Source: Thermoleophilia bacterium
GTDB taxonomy: Bacteria; Actinomycetota; Thermoleophilia; UBA2241
DNA length: 41,682 nt
Direction: 5' to 3'
NCBI GenBank assembly: GCA_035517975.1
Contig: DATIYD010000239.1
Span: 1 to 41,682 of the forward strand
Program-made: the position numbers and the translations under genes
In this document: one piece after another, positions 25,002 through 30,731 of the stretch
How the letters are laid out: every line of letters begins with the position of its first letter
Numbering within the stretch: position 1 is the first letter of the stretch
The notes under the pieces: model-generated
The model's database searches: none
What the model was told of the DNA's origin: nothing
The model's input: the letters and a program-made list of their open reading frames with translations, nothing else

Positions 25002-25507
25002 GGCTGATCCTCCCTGCGCGCCAGCACGATGGCGCCGATCATCGCGGCCAGCAGGACGAACGAGACGAGCTCGAACGGAAAGACGTAGCCGTTGAAGAGC
25101 CCGCTGGCGATCGCGGCCAGGGAGACGTTGTGGGCCTGCGAGCCGTTGGGCAGCATCTTCGAGGTCACGAGGACCACGGTGAGCACGACAAACATGGCCA
25201 CCGCCAGCGGCAGGGCGAAGATCGCCTGACGGTTGAAGAAGAAGCCCAGCGGCGCGTGGTGCTGCTCGGTCAGCATGATCGCGAAGAGCACGACCACCGA
25301 GATCGCGCCCACGTAGATCAGGATCTGGATGACGGCGAGCAGACCGGCGGCGAGCAGCACGTAGGCGGCCGCCACGCCGAGGAAGCAGAGCACCATGGCC
25401 ATCGCCGAATGGACGATGTTGCGGAAGGCCACGACGCCGAGCCCGCAGACCAGCACCCACACCGCGACGATCACGAACAGGACCGGATGGAAATCGCCGT
25501 GCGGCAT
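24998..25507 (-). CDS. nuoJ: NADH-quinone oxidoreductase subunit J
   Basis: 169 aa: MPHGDFHPVLFVIVAVWVLVCGLGVVAFRNIVHSAMAMVLCFLGVAAAYVLL... ATG at 25505-25507 overlaps the upstream stop by 1 nt. Confidence 0.9.
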   Translation of the reverse strand: MPHGDFHPVLFVIVAVWVLVCGLGVVAFRNIVHSAMAMVLCFLGVAAAYVLLAAGLLAVIQILIYVGAISVVVLFAIMLTEQHHAPLGFFFNRQAIFALPLAVAMFVVLTVVLVTSKMLPNGSQAHNVSLAAIASGLFNGYVFPFELVSFVLLAAMIGAIVLARREDQP

Positions 25508-27993
25508 CAGAGGTCGCGCTCCATCTCGTCGAGGGAGGCGCCGTCGCCCTTGACCGGCGTCCACTGCCAGCCGCCGCCCTCGACCGTCTCGCGGACGTGA
25601 GGCACGACGTCGGGCACGCACTCGCGGGGGCCGTCGCCGGGCTTGTCGCGGCGCACGAAGAGCGACTCGCCGGCCAGCAGGGTGCGGCTGTAGCCGGCCA
25701 GCTCGAAGAAGCCGGTCTGCTCGAGGGCGTCGTACGGGCAGACCTCGACGCATTCGCCGCAGAAGATGCAGCGGCTCTCGTCTAGGTCGTACCGGTCGAG
25801 GACCCTGCGATTGACGTCGATGGAGCCGGTCGGGCAGGTCTCGGCGCACTTGCCGCACGAGATGCAGCCGACCGTCTGCAGCGGCAGGTTGTCGGGCGTC
25901 GAGACGATCGTGTCCCAGCCGCGGCCGATGGCGTCGTAGCAGCTCGCCCCGACCTCCATGCGACAGACGCGCACGCAGCGCAGGCACATGATGCAGCGAT
26001 TGGGCTCGCGCATGATGAAGTCGTGGCGGAAGTCGGCTGGGTAGTCGTGCGCGGCCTGCCCGTGAAAGCGGTTCTCGAAGACCTCGTACTCGATGCCGTA
26101 GCGCTGCAGCTCGCAGCTGCCGTTGGCGGGACAGTGGCAATCGAGACAGAGCGCCGCGCCCTGCCGGGCCTGGTCTTCTGTCAAGCCGAGCTCGACCTCG
26201 TCGAAGCTCTTGATGCGCTCGCCGGGGGCAAGCGCCGGCATGGTGGCCGGCCCGACCGGCTGCGAGACGTCGGTCGTCATGTCGATGAACACCGGCGCGA
26301 CCTCGGCCAGGCGGGCGACGCCCGGCTCGAGGGCGTCGCGGGCCCGCAGGGCGTCGAGGAACGGTGTGGCGGCGAGGTCGGAGAGCGATCCCGAGACGGC
26401 CCGCATGTCGGCGCCGCGCAGGAAGGCGTCGATGCTCCAGGCCGCCTTCTTGCCCTGAGCGACCGCCTCGATCACGGTCTGGGCCCCGAGCACGACGTCG
26501 CCCCCGGCGAACACCCGGGGGTCGTCGGTCTGGAAGGTGAATCGGTCGACCTCGACGGTCTGTCGCGAGGTGCGCTTGACGCCCTGCGCCTCGCTCGTGC
26601 CGTCGAGCTTCGGGAGCTGGCCCGTGGCGTTGATCACCTGGTCGCAGGCGAGGACGAAGGTCGGCCCGTCGACGGGCTGCGTCCGGCTCTGACCCGAGTC
26701 GCCGGGCGCGACCTCGAGACGCCGCATCTCGATGCCGGTGACCTTGCCCTTGGCGCCGACGACCACGCGCACGGGCTCGACCAGCGTCTCGAGGCGGGCG
26801 CCCTCGCTCACGGTCGCCGCGACCTCGTCGGGCGGAGCCGACTGGGCGCCGGGCGCGCTCGCCGAGAGCAACGTGACCTCGCGCGCGCCCTTGCGCAGCG
26901 CGACGCGGCAGGCTTCGGTGGCGGCGAAACCGTCGCCGACGACGGCTACCTTGCGACCGACGCGCGCCTCGTCGCCGAGCTCGAGTGCGCCGAGGAGCTC
27001 GAGCGCGTCGAGCACGTCGGCGCCGTCGTGCTCGACCGGCAGCGGCGCGGCGGCGAAGGCGCCCAGGCCGAGGAAGACGGCGTCGAAGCGCGCGGTCAAG
27101 GCGTCGAGCTGCTCGTCGTCGCCCAGGCGAGTGTTGCACCGGAGCTCGACGCCCATGCGCCACAACACGTTCAGCTCCTTGTCGATCACGTCGCGCGGCA
27201 GGCGGAAGCTCGGGATGCCGTAGCGCAGCATGCCGCCCGGTTTGGGCAGGGCCTCGAAGATCGTTACGGCGTGGCCCTCGAGCCGGGCGTAGAACGCGCA
27301 GGCGAGGCCCGCCGGACCGGCGCCCACGATGGCGACCGTCTTGCCGCTGTCGGGCTTGGGCTCCCACGGCAGCAGCAGCTCGCCGGTCTGCTCGTCGTCT
27401 AAGCACTGGTCGGCCATGAAGCGGTGCAGCCAGCAGATGGTGATCGCGTCGTCGACGAGGCGGCGCCGGCAGGGCTCCTCGCAGGGCCGCGGACACACGC
27501 GCCCGAGAATGGCCGGGAACGGCAGGTCCTCGCGCAGCTTGCGCACGCCCGACCGATAGTCGCCGTTGGCGACGGCCTCGAGGAACTGCGGGATCTTGAT
27601 GTGCGTCGGGCAGGCGTCGCTGCAGGGCGGCGTGCAGAACGAGTTGTGATCGGACAGCAGGAGCTCGAGGTAGAGGCGCCGCATGCGGCGCACCTTGTCG
27701 GTGTCCGTGAGCACGACGATGCCGTCGGCCGCCATGGTCGAGCAGCTCGAGACGGGTTTGCCCCAGCCCTCGACCTCGACCATGCACAGGCGGCAGGCGG
27801 CAGAGGCCGGCAGGCGCGACTCGTAGCACAGCGTGGGGATGTGGACGCCGACCCGGGCGGCCGCCTGCAGGATGGTCTCACCCTTGTCGCACGTGACCTC
27901 GCGGCCGTCGATGGTGAGCGAGATCTGCTCGGCGCGCGACGCGGCCGCCTGGGGCGCCCCGGCGTTCTTCGACGTGTCGTGGGCGATCGTCAT
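25507..27993 (-). CDS. Chimeric Fe-S flavoprotein: NuoG/HydA-type N-terminal [2Fe-2S] + GltD/NfnB-like FAD/NAD(P)H oxidoreductase + NuoG/HydA-type [4Fe-4S] motifs + C-terminal half of NuoI
   Basis: About 828 aa from ATG 27991-27993, with ATGA overlap with the nuoF stop. The track merges it into a 1429-aa ORF. Motifs in order: [12 protein letters not shown]...TLCYES...[10 protein letters not shown]...SSCS; [29 protein letters not shown]...[30 protein letters not shown]...[82 protein letters not shown]...[49 protein letters not shown]. No molybdopterin-like domain. Confidence 0.85.
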   Translation of the reverse strand: [828 protein letters not shown]

Positions 27994-29915: not shown

Positions 29916-29969
29916 CGGACTAGGCGCTCCCCGGAGTCAAGCCAGCCTGAGCGATGCGGACGGAGTCGC

Positions 29970-30731
29970 TCATCGGTCGACCTCGGCGCGGTGACGCAGG
30001 TCGTTCACCAGTGCCCGCGCCTTGTCGGGGCTCATGCGGCCGTGGGTCTCGTCGTCGCCCAGCCTGACGACGGGAGCGAGGGCGCAGGCGCCGACGCAGC
30101 TCACCGTCTGCAGGGTGAAGAGCCGGTCCTTGCTGGTCTTCCCGACCTCGAGGTCGAGCTCGTCGGAGAAGGCTTCGGTGATGAGCGGGGCGCCGGCCAC
30201 GTGGCAGGCCGTGCCGTGACAGACGGTGATCACGAAGCGGCCGACCGGCGAGAGGCGGAACTGGTCGTAGAAGCTCGCCACGCCGTAGAGCTGCGAGAGC
30301 GAGACGCCGGTCTCGACCGCGATCTCCTGCAGGGCGAGCCGGGGCAGGTAGCCGTAGATCTCCTGGGTGTGCTGCAGGACCGCCATGAGGCCGGTGCCGG
30401 TCTCGCGGTAGTGATCGATGACCGGCGTGATCTGGGTGAGGTCGGGGACCGGCTGAGAGTCGGCGCGCACGCGCTGGATCCGGGCCTCGTTGACGGCCGG
30501 CAGCTCATAGCTGGAGTGGTAGTTCACGCGGATGACCTGGACCGGGCAGTTGGTCTCGCACAGCGTGCAGGCGCGGCAGCGCGGCTCGCCCGAAGCCGGG
30601 TCGAGAGCCACCCGGAACAGGCCGCGGCTGCGCTCGGGCAGCTGCTCGCGCTGTTCGGGGTACTGCACCGTGATCTTGCGCTGCGGCAGGTGACCCAGGG
30701 TGGTGCGCATGGCTTTGAGGATGCCGAGCAT
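29970..30731 (-). CDS. Fusion of the N-terminal half of NuoI (first CxxCxxCxxxCP motif) to a NuoE-type thioredoxin-like [2Fe-2S] subunit
   Basis: 253 aa from ATG 30729-30731, with 1-nt overlap with the nuoH stop. It opens with MLGILKAMRTTLGHLPQRKITVQYPEQREQLPERSRGLFRV...EPRCRACTLCETNCPVQVIRV. The NuoE part follows: LMAVLQHTQEIYGYLP...LYGVASFYDQFRL...VCHGTACHVAG...SCVGACALAPV. Confidence 0.85.
   Translation of the reverse strand: MLGILKAMRTTLGHLPQRKITVQYPEQREQLPERSRGLFRVALDPASGEPRCRACTLCETNCPVQVIRVNYHSSYELPAVNEARIQRVRADSQPVPDLTQITPVIDHYRETGTGLMAVLQHTQEIYGYLPRLALQEIAVETGVSLSQLYGVASFYDQFRLSPVGRFVITVCHGTACHVAGAPLITEAFSDELDLEVGKTSKDRLFTLQTVSCVGACALAPVVRLGDDETHGRMSPDKARALVNDLRHRAEVDR

What the first reader, a model, noticed from the sequence alone, without database searches (positions are those of the whole stretch)
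25507..30731. nuoI appears split in two, with an E/F/G-like redox cassette inserted in frame between the halves
No stand-alone nuoI lies between nuoH and nuoJ. The first 75 aa or so of the 29970..30731 product read as the conserved NuoI N-terminus: ...LPQRKITVQYPEQREQLPERSRGLFRV...EPRCRACTLCETNCPVQVIRV, which carries one CxxCxxCxxxCP motif. That polypeptide then continues as a complete NuoE. The last 100 aa or so of the 25507..27993 product read as the second NuoI motif plus its C-terminal segment: [44 protein letters not shown]. The gene order is therefore A-B-C-D-H-[I_N::E]-F-[G-like::GltD::I_C]-J-K-L-M-N, not the canonical A..N order with E-F-G between D and H. This looks like an 11-gene complex I backbone that captured a soluble flavin/Fe-S module by insertion into nuoI. 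In a 2x[4Fe-4S] ferredoxin fold, each cluster takes three Cys from one motif and the Cys-Pro cysteine from the other. Clusters N6a/N6b would then have to be built across two different polypeptides, physically stapling the foreign module to the Q-module. I do not recall this architecture being described.
Basis: partly seen in the sequence, partly recalled or inferred. Interest (0 to 1): 0.92.

Follow-up and report, generated by a model that had tools for sequence, protein, structure and literature searches.

The report
Complex I with a split NuoI
In this uncultured soil bacterium the respiratory complex I gene nuoI is cut in two by an inserted three-gene NADH/NADPH-oxidising cassette, and the same layout recurs in about 70 related genomes and in another phylum, so it looks like a real and apparently undescribed way of plugging a new electron-input module into complex I.

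Summary
On the minus strand the gene order is nuoA-B-C-D-H-[I_N::E]-F-[G-like/GltD::I_C]-J-K-L-M-N, and the window holds no intact nuoI.

- **The two halves are complementary.** Residues 8-74 of the 253-aa protein match NuoI profile positions 2-66. Residues 728-772 of the 828-aa protein match positions 69-113. Rejoined in silico, they give one continuous NuoI match of 107 bits, more than a genuine unsplit NuoI scored (93.6 bits).
- **The inserted genes are NfnABC/StnABC-type.** They are not ordinary nuoEFG. All three are closest to this soluble Bfu-family transhydrogenase, and the NuoG-like C-terminal domain is replaced by I_C.
- **It is not an artefact.** The layout is conserved in about 70 species-level Thermoleophilia MAGs and in more than 120 protein clusters. 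Collinear variants occur in Chloroflexota (45% identity).

Most likely the halves co-fold into the N6a/N6b double-cluster domain. That domain would wire and tether an NADH + NADPH (possibly also ferredoxin) input module to the quinone module. Co-folding, substrates and direction are inferred.

I found no description in the searchable literature. I rate it a new variant of a known kind, of high interest to bioenergetics.

The parts
34314..34682 (-). nuoA (122 aa)
   Evidence: The ORF and its translation are typical of NuoA. It is the first gene of the operon.
33553..34320 (-). nuoB (start approximate). It carries the N2 ligands (CCAIEM...GACA...GCPP) and an Ala/Pro-rich C-terminal extension of about 75 aa.
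   Evidence: NCBIfam NuoB subfamily NF005012, 241 bits against a cutoff of 116. Sequence.
33056..33560 (-). nuoC (start approximate)
   Evidence: NCBIfam TIGR01961 NuoC_fam, 122.3 bits against a cutoff of 122.45.
31849..33063 (-). nuoD (404 aa). The quinone-site motifs QHPSTHG and DRTEYV are present.
   Evidence: NCBIfam NF004739, 439.6 bits against a cutoff of 360. Sequence.
30731..31852 (-). nuoH. Its stop codon overlaps the start codon of the next gene (TGATG).
   Evidence: NCBIfam NF004741, 335 bits against a cutoff of 305. Junction.
30504..30731 (-). I_N: the N-terminal half of NuoI (P1 residues 1-76). It comprises the N-terminal helix, the TVQYPE segment and the first CxxCxxCxxxCP motif (C52, C55, C58, C62).
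   Evidence: TIGR01971 positions 2-66 (E 8.9e-14). PDB hits are almost exclusively NuoI/TYKY chains. It is the most conserved part of P1, at 84% identity across 46 homologues.
30423..30503 (-). Linker between I_N and the E domain (P1 residues 77-103). It has a predicted helix at 79-92 and a few invariant residues (R89, Q93; L77, P78, A83 and R84 in at least 90%).
   Evidence: Alignments A1 and A2. AF2 secondary structure.
29970..30422 (-). NuoE/NfnC-like thioredoxin-like [2Fe-2S] domain of P1 (residues 104-253; ligands C171, C176, C212, C216), plus the stop codon.
   Evidence: Pfam PF01257 (E 1e-42). Best solved relatives are NfnC 9bov_C (155 bits), 9n5u_C and Stn 8oh5_A. Complex I NuoE chains score only 72-82 bits.
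27990..29915 (-). P2: a NuoF/BfuB-like FMN/NADH subunit (641 aa). It has an N-terminal thioredoxin-like [2Fe-2S] domain and a C-terminal 2x[4Fe-4S] domain.
   Evidence: Pfam Complex1_51K, NADH_4Fe-4S, 2Fe-2S_thioredx (residues 28-105) and Fer4 (residues 576-620). It aligns end to end with HydB/NfnB/Stn chains 7t2r_B, 8a6t_B, 9bov_B and 8oh5_B at 690-790 bits. Nqo1 scores 367 bits.
27694..27930 (-). P3 residues 22-100: NuoG/HydA-type N-terminal [2Fe-2S] domain (N1b-like).
   Evidence: Pfam Fer2_4 (E 1e-19).
26404..27693 (-). P3 residues 101-530: the GltD/NfnB-like insert, with 2x[4Fe-4S] (Fer4_20) and the FAD and NADPH Rossmann folds.
   Evidence: Pfam Fer4_20 and Pyr_redox_2. Aligns to Csac NfnA 9bov_A residues 5-501 (E 1.8e-154) and StnC 8oh5_C. 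The AF2 model is confident here.
25819..26163 (-). P3 residues 611-725: an N5-like cluster motif (C616, C619, C621, C627) and a HydA/HoxU-type ferredoxin-like domain with two [4Fe-4S] motifs (at residues 667 and 710).
   Evidence: Aligns to Csac NfnA 551-671, StnC 550-671 and HydA chains. The homology ends at CPTG. Pfam NADH-G_4Fe-4S_3 and Fer4_Nqo3.
25510..25818 (-). I_C: the C-terminal half of NuoI (P3 residues 726-828). It comprises a beta-strand, the second CxxCxxCxxxCP motif (C742, C745, C748, C752), the NuoI C-terminal segment and a conserved GGWxW tail.
   Evidence: TIGR01971 positions 69-113 (E 2.4e-15). Single-stretch hits to NuoI/TYKY chains at about 1e-10, aligning to Nqo9 residues 83-172. 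The Cys, CP and flanking residues are invariant in 39 homologues.
24998..25507 (-). nuoJ. Its ATG overlaps the P3 stop codon (TGATG).
24693..25001 (-). nuoK (start approximate)
   Evidence: NCBIfam NF004320, 99 bits against a cutoff of 57.
22788..24683 (-). nuoL
   Evidence: NCBIfam NF005141, 725 bits against a cutoff of 556.
21199..22791 (-). nuoM (start approximate)
   Evidence: NCBIfam TIGR01972, 610 bits.
19675..21198 (-). nuoN (assigned by position and ORF properties; not scanned against a profile)
   Evidence: A 507-aa ORF with GC3 of 0.96, directly downstream of nuoM.

Best explanation
This is the electron-input region of a non-canonical respiratory complex I from an uncultured Thermoleophilia bacterium (Actinomycetota).

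**Anatomy.** An 11-gene nuo backbone (A-B-C-D-H-I-J-K-L-M-N) carries a three-gene cassette inside nuoI. The cassette is homologous to the soluble NfnABC/StnABC (Bfu-family) NADH/NADPH/ferredoxin oxidoreductases. NuoI is therefore made as two pieces.
- I_N consists of the N-terminal helix and the first CxxCxxCxxxCP motif. It forms the N-terminus of the NuoE/NfnC-like subunit.
- I_C consists of a strand, the second CxxCxxCxxxCP motif and the NuoI C-terminal segment. It forms the C-terminus of the NuoG-N-terminal/GltD subunit. There it takes the place of the molybdopterin-like domain found in NuoG, NfnA and StnC.

**Proposed mechanism.** The two pieces most likely co-fold into the usual 2x[4Fe-4S] NuoI domain (clusters N6a/N6b), with each cluster ligated by both polypeptides. 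This domain would serve both as the wire and as a double covalent tether between the flavin module and NuoB/D/H.
- Electrons enter from NADH at the FMN of the 641-aa subunit.
- Electrons also enter from NADPH at the FAD of the GltD insert.
- They travel along the Fe-S chain of the 828-aa subunit and leave through its last [4Fe-4S] cluster. In Stn this branch is a dead end.
- They then pass through N6a/N6b and N2 to menaquinone, driving proton pumping.
- The extra Bfu-type clusters on the 641-aa subunit may add reduced ferredoxin as a co-donor (confurcation).

**Shown:** gene structure, homologies, complementarity of the halves, and conservation. **Inferred:** co-folding, substrates, direction of electron flow, and any bifurcation.
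For: **1. The NuoI matches are complementary.**
- P1 matches TIGR01971 positions 2-66 and P3 matches positions 69-113.
- The rejoined halves give one continuous match to positions 2-114 at 107 bits. A real unsplit NuoI scored 93.6 bits, and the family cutoff is 113.
- The rejoined halves align with an unsplit Dehalococcoidia NuoI at 35% identity over 147 residues. The only gap at the split point is 6 residues.

**2. Motif arithmetic fits.**
- Motifs 667 and 710 of P3 are the standard pair of the HydA/NfnA/StnC ferredoxin-like domain. Homology to those solved chains ends at CPTG, near residue 725.
- That leaves motif 742 unpaired in P3 and motif 52 unpaired in P1.

**3. The halves sit where nuoI should be.** I_N starts on the nuoH stop codon and I_C ends on the nuoJ start codon. 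There is no other nuoI in the window.

**4. Purifying selection.** I_N is the most conserved part of P1, at 84% identity against 70% for the E domain. The I_C cysteines and flanks are invariant.

**5. Recurrence.**
- D-H-[I_N::E]-F-[G/GltD::I_C]-J-K-L is found in about 70 species-level MAGs.
- Each fusion protein has more than 120 full-length 90%-identity clusters.
- A collinear orthologue occurs in Chloroflexota, at 45% identity over 781 residues including I_C.
- A rearranged form (L076) has the GltD domain on the F subunit but keeps the same split.

**6. All three cassette proteins are closest to NfnABC/Stn/HydABC chains, not to complex I NuoEFG**.

**7. The backbone keeps the N2 ligands and the quinone-site motifs**.

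**8. Literature.**
- In Stn, the cluster branch leading to the C-terminal domain is off-pathway (PMC10482914).
- A complex I with a Bfu-type input module has been predicted for other phyla (PMC9304861).
Against: - There is no structural test of co-folding.
- AF2 on P1 alone gives pLDDT below 50 for residues 18-24 and 29-75. AF2 on P3 alone gives pLDDT below 40 for residues 618-828. This is expected for half-domains and cofactor-dependent folds, but it gives no positive support.
- Each half alone scores well below the NuoI family cutoff. The rejoined window sequence is 6 bits short of it.
- I_C's top whole-sequence hits are polyferredoxins. It could therefore simply extend the P3 cluster chain.
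- The I_N-to-E linker is only about 33 residues. In canonical complex I, NuoE lies far from NuoI (established structures, from memory). The module must therefore sit differently from a normal N-module.
- I could not check whether the same genomes also carry a canonical nuoI or nuo operon elsewhere.
- Substrates and direction are untested. The Chloroflexota variants have a plain NuoF core without the Bfu extras, so ferredoxin coupling is not a family-wide feature.
Confidence: 0.75

Rival explanations
1. The two NuoI-like pieces do not co-fold. I_C would be one more cluster site extending the polyferredoxin-like chain of the 828-aa subunit. I_N would be a membrane-anchoring remnant that holds one cluster on its own or none. 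Electron transfer to N2 would then use a non-NuoI geometry.
For: - I_C's best whole-sequence PDB hits are polyferredoxins (FwdF, MvhB), and Pfam reads residues 710-756 as one dicluster domain.
- The AF2 single-chain models give no fold for either half.
- The short linkers imply a geometry unlike canonical complex I.
Against: - Motif 710 is already paired with motif 667 in all solved homologues.
- A lone CxxCxxCxxxCP motif leaves each cluster one ligand short. Both orphan motifs keep all four Cys and the Pro in every homologue.
- The strands that flank the split in unsplit NuoI are retained on both sides, and the rejoined sequence aligns continuously.
- I_N is the most conserved segment of its protein.
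Confidence: 0.12
2. The complex runs mainly in reverse. It would use the proton-motive force and menaquinol to reduce NAD(P)+ and ferredoxin, acting as an energy-driven supplier of low-potential reductant. Alternatively it acts chiefly as a membrane-bound transhydrogenase rather than a respiratory NAD(P)H dehydrogenase. The architecture is the same as in the best explanation; only the physiology differs.
For: - NfnABC/Stn enzymes are reversible redox-pool balancers (PMC10482914, PMC11829005).
- The GltD NADPH site is the one feature present in every variant found.
- Complex I is reversible in general (established knowledge).
Against: - Nothing in the sequence sets a direction.
- Genes for 2-oxoacid:ferredoxin oxidoreductases lie nearby in the window and in L080. 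They suggest that reduced ferredoxin is produced catabolically rather than being in short supply.
Confidence: 0.1
3. Sequencing, assembly or gene-calling artefact. A frameshift, a chimeric contig or missed stop codons would create apparent fusions out of separate nuoI, nuoE and nuoG genes.
For: The window is a single MAG contig (P0390, contig length 41,682) and no reads are available.
Against: - The same fusion proteins, 251-253 aa and about 810-880 aa long, occur in more than 120 clusters each from JGI, ENA, NCBI and Logan assemblies.
- The same gene order occurs in about 70 species-level genomes from many studies, and in Chloroflexota.
- The reading frames are uninterrupted and the start/stop codons overlap.
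Confidence: 0.01
4. The cassette encodes an independent soluble Nfn-like transhydrogenase that is merely co-transcribed with nuo. The NuoI-like ends would be decaying remnants of a disrupted gene, and the nuo backbone would be non-functional or served by a nuoI elsewhere.
For: - The cassette proteins are closest to soluble enzymes.
- One Chloroflexota locus lacks nuoJ-N downstream.
- A second nuoI elsewhere in the genome could not be excluded.
Against: - Remnants would not be the best-conserved parts of their proteins across 62-97% identity homologues and across phyla.
- P3 has lost the C-terminal domain that Stn needs for assembly, and carries I_C in exactly that place.
- All backbone genes are intact and have high coding signal.
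Confidence: 0.02

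Closest known systems
NuoI / Nqo9 / TYKY (NDUFS8), the 2x[4Fe-4S] subunit of complex I carrying clusters N6a and N6b
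   Same: The N-terminal helix and TVQYPE segment, two CxxCxxCxxxCP motifs, the C-terminal segment, and the gene position between nuoH and nuoJ. The rejoined sequence aligns end to end with the family profile.
   Different: It is encoded as two polypeptides, cut in the loop between the two motifs. Each piece is fused to a subunit of the electron-input module. In the searchable literature I found no natural split of this subunit.
NfnABC / StnABC (Nfn-Bfu) electron-bifurcating transhydrogenases: Caldicellulosiruptor saccharolyticus 9bov, Sporomusa ovata 8oh5, and 9n5u
   Same: - Three subunits in the same order.
- An E-like [2Fe-2S] subunit.
- An F-like FMN subunit with an N-terminal [2Fe-2S] domain and a C-terminal 2x[4Fe-4S] domain.
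- A NuoG-N-terminal subunit with a GltD FAD/NADPH domain inserted after the [2Fe-2S] domain.
- These are the best solved relatives of all three proteins.
   Different: - The known enzymes are soluble tetramers whose large subunit ends in an inactive molybdopterin/FdhF-like domain (PMC10482914). Here that domain is absent and I_C takes its place.
- The E-like subunit carries I_N.
- The genes are embedded in a nuo operon.
Nuo-Bfu, the predicted complex I with a Bfu-type NuoEFG module (Schut et al. 2022, PMC9304861)
   Same: The idea of a proton-pumping, quinone-reducing complex I whose input module has the extra Bfu clusters and may co-oxidise NADH and ferredoxin.
   Different: - Nuo-Bfu is described as a 14-gene nuoA-N cluster.
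- The paper never mentions NuoI, GltD or gene fusions.
- It is reported only from Deferribacteres, Proteobacteria, Planctomycetes and Nitrospirae.
Mbh-Bfu of Dehalococcoides (predicted) and the mbx-like operons of Thermotoga
   Same: - In Mbh-Bfu the BfuABC genes sit in the middle of a cluster for a complex I-related membrane enzyme, and one subunit has an extra flavin site (PMC9304861).
- In the mbx-like operons a GltD-like flavoprotein stands in for the NuoI homologue (PMC4758237).
   Different: These are hydrogenase-type or Mbx-type modules, not quinone-reducing Nuo. Neither paper reports a split NuoI homologue. Whether Mbh-Bfu hides one was not tested here.
Inter-polypeptide [4Fe-4S] clusters, for example FX of photosystem I (PsaA/PsaB) and the nitrogenase Fe protein (from memory)
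   Same: Fe-S clusters are ligated by cysteines from two chains and hold the chains together.
   Different: In those cases a single cluster sits at a dimer interface. Here a whole two-cluster ferredoxin fold would be assembled from two halves on unrelated proteins.

Membership tests
NuoI (TIGR01971 / Nqo9 / TYKY) | N-terminal segment (amphipathic helix plus conserved T-V-x-Y-P-E) followed by the first CxxCxxCxxxCP motif | tested here: met
   P1 residues 8-74 match profile positions 2-66 (E 8.9e-14). They align to Nqo9 residues 7-71 and to many TYKY chains.
NuoI (TIGR01971 / Nqo9 / TYKY) | Second CxxCxxCxxxCP motif with the NuoI-type C-terminal segment | tested here: met
   P3 residues 728-772 match profile positions 69-113 (E 2.4e-15). 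They align to Nqo9 residues 83-172.
NuoI (TIGR01971 / Nqo9 / TYKY) | Both motifs on one polypeptide of about 150-200 aa | tested here: not met
   The motifs lie on two proteins, of 253 aa and 828 aa, with a 641-aa gene between them. There is no intact copy in the window.
NuoI (TIGR01971 / Nqo9 / TYKY) | Score above the curated family cutoff (113.05 bits) | tested here: inconclusive
   The halves score 51.1 and 56.2 bits. The rejoined window sequence scores 107.0 bits and the rejoined L076 sequence 116.1 bits. A real unsplit Dehalococcoidia NuoI scores 93.6 bits.
NuoI (TIGR01971 / Nqo9 / TYKY) | Gene located between nuoH and nuoJ | tested here: met
   I_N begins on the nuoH stop codon and I_C ends on the nuoJ start codon. 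The same holds in about 70 loci.
NuoI (TIGR01971 / Nqo9 / TYKY) | Binds clusters N6a and N6b and sits between NuoG (N5) and NuoB (N2) | not testable with these tools
   This needs a structure or spectroscopy.
Bfu family (BfuABC; HydABC / NfnABC / StnABC) | BfuB: NuoF core plus an N-terminal thioredoxin-like [2Fe-2S] domain and a C-terminal 2x[4Fe-4S] domain | tested here: met
   Pfam 2Fe-2S_thioredx at residues 28-105, Complex1_51K, NADH_4Fe-4S, and Fer4 at residues 576-620. End-to-end alignment to 7t2r_B, 8a6t_B, 9bov_B and 8oh5_B.
Bfu family (BfuABC; HydABC / NfnABC / StnABC) | BfuC: NuoE-like [2Fe-2S] subunit | tested here: met
   P1 residues 104-245. Best PDB hits are NfnC, Stn and HydC chains at 128-155 bits.
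Nfn-Bfu (NfnABC / StnABC) | Large subunit with a GltD FAD/NADPH domain inserted between the [2Fe-2S] domain and the His/Cys-cluster plus ferredoxin-like domains | tested here: met
   P3 residues 25-528 align to 9bov_A residues 5-501 (E 1.8e-154). P3 residues 21-726 align to 9n5u_A residues 7-699. P3 residues 604-725 align to 9bov_A residues 551-671.
Nfn-Bfu (NfnABC / StnABC) | Large subunit ends in a molybdopterin/FdhF-like domain. The enzyme is a soluble heterotrimer or tetramer. | tested here: not met
   P3 is 828 aa against 1172-1178 aa and has no PF00384 or PF04879 match. Its genes lie inside a nuo operon.
Nfn-Bfu (NfnABC / StnABC) | Ferredoxin-dependent NADPH:NAD+ electron bifurcation | not testable with these tools
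   This is a biochemical property.
Canonical 14-subunit complex I (NuoA-N) | nuoE-F-G lie between nuoD and nuoH, and NuoG has a molybdopterin-like C-terminal domain | tested here: not met
   nuoD is directly followed by nuoH. The E/F/G-like genes lie between the two NuoI halves, and there is no NuoG C-terminal domain.
Nuo-Bfu (predicted, PMC9304861) | 14-gene nuoA-N cluster whose NuoEFG are of BfuCBA type | tested here: not met
   A Bfu-type F subunit is present. However, the gene order differs, NuoI is split, and a GltD domain is inserted. The paper does not mention such forms or this phylum.

The most novel reading that the evidence does not exclude
A proton-pumping complex I that couples four redox partners in one machine: NADH, NADPH, ferredoxin and menaquinone. 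Its Nfn/Stn-type bifurcating module would be stapled to the quinone module by a NuoI domain whose two [4Fe-4S] clusters are each ligated by two different polypeptides. It would be the first natural split two-cluster ferredoxin fold. It would also be a living example of how complex I can acquire an input module, by insertion of an operon into nuoI.
Probability: 0.3. Interest if true: 0.92.

Novelty: new variant of a known kind. Interest (0 to 1): 0.8.

Why it matters
**1. Evolution of complex I.** How the NADH module joined the 11-subunit core is a long-standing question. Here a different flavin module is joined by a different route: insertion into nuoI, with no NuoG C-terminal domain. The gene junctions are still visible.

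**2. Physiology.** The split form would connect the NADPH pool directly to the quinone pool and the proton-motive force, and in the Thermoleophilia form possibly ferredoxin too. It occurs in lineages recovered from soil, peat and sediment metagenomes (MAG names such as palsa, bog, Lac Pavin sediment, AnMBR and the MFD series).

**3. Annotation.** Pipelines label these proteins 'NuoE' and 'FAD-dependent oxidoreductase' or 'formate dehydrogenase major subunit'. Metabolic reconstructions will therefore probably score complex I as lacking NuoI and NuoG.

**4. Protein science.** A naturally split 2x[4Fe-4S] domain that assembles across two chains would be a useful model for Fe-S assembly and for engineered split-ferredoxin switches.

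Tried and rejected
- **AF2 of P1 with 46 homologues.** The E domain is confident. I_N residues 18-24 and 29-75 have pLDDT below 50.
- **AF2 of P3 with 39 homologues.** The GltD part is confident. All Fe-S parts at residues 618-828 have pLDDT below 40. Neither model can test co-folding, so I ran no fold searches on them.
- **Literature searches.** I searched for a split or fused NuoI, Nuo-Bfu, Thermoleophilia with nuoEFG, and Chloroflexi with gltD and nuo. These found the Bfu survey, the Stn/Nfn structures and an mbx/gltD remark, but nothing describing this architecture.
- **Search for a cultured carrier.** A tblastn search of the plasmid collection, which includes megaplasmids, gave only Stn-like hits ending before I_C.
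- **Alternative pairing considered and rejected.** I considered that the last motif of P3 is just the second motif of the HoxU-like ferredoxin domain. Alignment to NfnA, StnC and HydA shows that domain is already complete with motifs 667 and 710.
- **Second nuoI elsewhere in the genome.** This could not be checked.

Full report
**What is in the sequence**

All relevant genes are on the minus strand of a 65-70% G+C window. Profile scans give the order nuoA, nuoB, nuoC, nuoD, nuoH, then three unusual genes, then nuoJ, nuoK, nuoL, nuoM and nuoN. The three unusual genes are:
- 29970-30731: P1, 253 aa.
- 27990-29915: P2, 641 aa.
- 25507-27993: P3, 828 aa.

There is no separate nuoI between nuoH and nuoJ. 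A tblastn search of the whole window with an unsplit NuoI finds only the two pieces described below, plus generic ferredoxin motifs. The junctions are tight. The nuoH stop overlaps the P1 start (TGATG). The P2 stop overlaps the P3 start (ATGA). The P3 stop overlaps the nuoJ start (TGATG). P3 is identical to a database protein from a 41,682-base contig named 'MAG TPA: FAD-dependent oxidoreductase [Thermoleophilia bacterium]'.

**The two NuoI halves**

Against NCBIfam TIGR01971 (NuoI, 121 positions), P1 residues 8-74 match positions 2-66 (E 8.9e-14). P3 residues 728-772 match positions 69-113 (E 2.4e-15). The matches are complementary and do not overlap.

Against solved structures, the first 100 residues of P1 hit almost only NuoI/TYKY/NDUFS8 chains, aligning to Nqo9 residues 7-71 at E 8e-7 with a best hit of 1.3e-11. 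One marginal non-NuoI hit (E 0.003) sits at the bottom of the list. The last 107 residues of P3 give single-stretch hits to the same chains at about 1e-10, aligning to Nqo9 residues 83-172. The nominally better hits to polyferredoxins come from summing many repeats.

I joined P1 1-76 to P3 724-828 in silico. The result is one continuous match to profile positions 2-114 at 107.0 bits, against a curated cutoff of 113.05. The same operation on a second lineage (L076) gives 116.1 bits. A genuine unsplit NuoI from a Dehalococcoidia D-H-I-J operon scores 93.6 bits. The rejoined sequence aligns with that unsplit NuoI at 35% identity over 147 residues, with a single 6-residue gap at the split. The cut therefore lies in the loop between the two cluster motifs, and the strands on both sides are retained.

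**Why the last motif of P3 is not simply part of its own ferredoxin domain**

P3 has three CxxCxxCxxxC motifs, at residues 667, 710 and 742. P1 has one, at residue 52. Alignment of P3 residues 600-737 to Csac NfnA (551-671), S. ovata StnC (550-671) and HydA chains shows that motifs 667 and 710 are the standard pair of the HydA/NuoG-type ferredoxin-like domain. Homology to those proteins stops at CPTG, about residue 725. Motif 742 is therefore extra.

In the 2x[4Fe-4S] ferredoxin fold, each cluster takes three Cys from one motif and the Cys-Pro cysteine from the other (established knowledge). The two orphan motifs, one on each protein, are exactly what one NuoI domain needs. This is an inference from sequence and has not been tested structurally.

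**What the inserted genes are**

- **P1 residues 104-245** form a complete thioredoxin-like [2Fe-2S] domain (Pfam PF01257, E 1e-42). Its best solved relatives are NfnC (9bov_C at 155 bits, 9n5u_C), Stn 8oh5_A and HydC. Complex I NuoE chains score only 72-82 bits.
- **P2** is a NuoF core with an N-terminal [2Fe-2S] domain and a C-terminal 2x[4Fe-4S] domain. It aligns end to end with HydB/NfnB/Stn chains at 690-790 bits. Nqo1 scores 367 bits.
- **P3** has four parts: a NuoG/HydA-type [2Fe-2S] domain, an inserted GltD-like domain (two [4Fe-4S], FAD and NADPH folds), an N5-like cluster motif, and the ferredoxin-like domain. Its best relatives are Csac NfnA (E 1.8e-154), StnC and 'NfnA' 9n5u_A.

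Those soluble proteins continue into a molybdopterin/FdhF-like domain of about 300-500 residues. P3 lacks that domain and carries I_C in its place. The cassette is therefore of the NfnABC/StnABC (Bfu-family) type, not a standard NuoEFG.

For Stn, the cluster branch that leads toward the FdhF-like domain is described as an off-pathway evolutionary remnant that is needed only for assembly (PMC10482914). In P3 that branch leads straight into I_C, with only 21 residues between Cys720 and Cys742.

**Is it real?**

Yes.
- P1 has more than 120 full-length 90%-identity clusters of 251-253 aa, down to 62% identity, from JGI, ENA, NCBI and Logan assemblies.
- P3 likewise has more than 120 clusters of about 810-880 aa.
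- A scan of one genome per species returned 75 loci. About 70 are uncultured Thermoleophilia or 'Actinomycetes' MAGs.
- In every locus long enough, tblastn recovers D-H-[I_N::E]-F-[P3 with I_C]-J-K-L.
- I_N is the most conserved part of P1, at 84% mean identity against 70% for the E domain. The I_C cysteines, the CP and the flanks are invariant.

No frameshift or assembly error could produce this pattern.

**Wider family**

A search of 1.8 billion representative proteins with I_N alone turned up other single-motif forms.

| Locus | Source | Layout |
|---|---|---|
| L080 | Chloroflexota MAG GCA_016190715.1 | A-B-C-D-H-[I_N::degenerate E, 215 aa]-[plain NuoF core, 456 aa]-[793-aa G/GltD::I_C]. 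The last protein is collinear with P3 at 45% identity over 781 residues. |
| L078 | not assigned | D-H-[I_N::E]-[F core]-[G/GltD::I_C] |
| L082/L083 | Limnocylindria-like | I_N fusion of 241 aa (no Pfam match), F core, G/GltD start |
| L076 | low-GC lineage | H-[I_N::E]-[F::GltD, 1048 aa]-[HoxU-like::I_C, 265 aa]-J-K-L-M-N |
| L077 | Thermoleophilia | I_N::E'::F triple fusion |

The GltD domain is present in every variant. The Bfu-type extras of the F subunit are not: the N-terminal [2Fe-2S] domain occurs only in the main Thermoleophilia form and in L076, and the C-terminal 2x[4Fe-4S] domain only in the main form. The constant features of the family are therefore the split NuoI together with an NADH site and an NADPH site.

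**Mechanism proposed**

The backbone keeps the N2 ligands in NuoB and the quinone-site motifs in NuoD, so it is a quinone reductase. I propose that I_N and I_C co-fold into the N6a/N6b domain on NuoB/D/H. This would replace the docking role of the missing NuoG C-terminal domain with two covalent tethers.

The proposed electron path is as follows. NADH donates at the FMN of P2 and NADPH at the FAD of the GltD insert. Both feed the Fe-S chain of P3. Electrons leave through the motif-710 cluster into N6a/N6b, then N2, then menaquinone. Actinomycetota use menaquinone (general knowledge).

In the Thermoleophilia form, the ferredoxin-side clusters of P2 could add reduced ferredoxin as a co-donor. 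Schut et al. predicted this for 'Nuo-Bfu' as a way to compensate for the small NADH-to-menaquinone driving force (PMC9304861). An indolepyruvate-type 2-oxoacid:ferredoxin oxidoreductase fragment lies at the edge of the window.

Gene structure, homology and conservation are shown. Co-folding, substrates, direction and bifurcation are inferred.

**What could not be settled**
- A chimeric or multimer model could not be run.
- Single-chain AF2 models were confident only for the E and GltD parts.
- The short I_N-to-E linker (about 33 residues, with a predicted helix at 79-92) means the module cannot sit as in canonical complex I. This is a real uncertainty.
- I could not test whether these genomes also have an intact nuoI elsewhere.

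**Comparison with what is known**

The nearest concepts are:
- canonical NuoI;
- the soluble NfnABC/StnABC enzymes (PMC11829005, PMC10482914);
- the predicted Nuo-Bfu and Mbh-Bfu complexes (PMC9304861);
- a remark that a gltD-like flavoprotein replaces NuoI in Thermotoga mbx-like operons (PMC4758237).

The Bfu survey does not mention NuoI, GltD-in-Nuo, gene fusions or Actinobacteria. The term 'Nuo-Bfu' occurs in that paper only. Seven full-text searches found no description of a split NuoI. The library covers open-access papers and bioRxiv only, so a description elsewhere cannot be excluded.

**Verdict**

This is a new variant of a known kind of system: complex I with an alternative input module. 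Its unusual and apparently unreported feature is a core Fe-S subunit split by an operon insertion and probably reassembled across two fusion proteins.

Noticed in passing
L054:10001-14273 (CAVXDR010000005.1, MAG MFD02138.bin.2.13): A variant of the same operon. The F-like protein (about 460 aa) has degenerate FMN/NADH motifs and no N-terminal [2Fe-2S] domain. A 2x[4Fe-4S] segment like the C-terminus of P2 sits inside the GltD NADPH-binding region of the P3 homologue. I_N (82% identity) and I_C are intact. It may be a decaying or re-wired paralogue.
   Followed up: partly
L076:1321-6023 (Logan SRR22388304, low-GC organism): A rearranged form of the split. I_N::E is 251 aa. A 1048-aa protein fuses the F subunit to GltD. 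A 265-aa HoxU-like protein ends in I_C. nuoJ-N follow. Only two protein clusters of this type were found.
   Followed up: partly
L080:4481-16648 (Chloroflexota MAG GCA_016190715.1, JACPPZ010000003.1): The split-NuoI cassette follows nuoA-B-C-D-H, but no nuoJ-N genes come after it. Instead there are a flavin reductase, a GYD protein, a ferredoxin, a three-subunit 2-oxoacid:ferredoxin oxidoreductase and a rubrerythrin. The E part of I_N::E has lost its [2Fe-2S] domain.
   Followed up: partly
L077:10001-11824 (ENA ERZ27247322; cluster members named Thermoleophilia): A 607-aa triple fusion: I_N, a cysteine-less remnant of E, and the NuoF core in one polypeptide. It is followed by a G/GltD gene that is cut off by the contig end.
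   Followed up: partly
window 33553-33780 (-), C-terminus of nuoB: NuoB carries an Ala/Pro/Asp-rich, low-complexity C-terminal extension of about 75 residues after the conserved GCPP region.
   Followed up: no
window 38685-41681 (-): A phenylacetate-CoA-ligase-like gene (AMP-binding plus AMP-binding_C_2) lies next to the end of an indolepyruvate-type 2-oxoacid:ferredoxin oxidoreductase (TPP_enzyme_C plus Fer4), which is cut by the window edge. This is a likely local source of reduced ferredoxin.
   Followed up: no
window 11208-12464 (+): An HMG-CoA synthase gene (both Pfam halves present), hinting at a mevalonate pathway in this actinobacterial MAG.
   Followed up: no
window 2994-5234 (-): A 746-codon stop-to-stop frame with high GC3 and no Pfam match at E below 1e-5.
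   Followed up: no
window 25507-27993 and 29970-30731; database names: Automated names partly betray the hidden NuoI halves. JGI calls P3 homologues 'NADPH-dependent glutamate synthase beta subunit-like oxidoreductase/formate hydrogenlyase subunit 6'. It calls some P1 homologues 'NuoE/Pyruvate:ferredoxin oxidoreductase delta subunit'. NCBI names them only 'FAD-dependent oxidoreductase' and 'NAD(P)H-dependent oxidoreductase subunit E'.
   Followed up: yes
window 18763-19674 (-): A YmdB-like metallophosphoesterase gene directly follows nuoN on the same strand. After it come a sugar transferase and an NAD-dependent epimerase (17032-18762 and 15943-17031).
   Followed up: no
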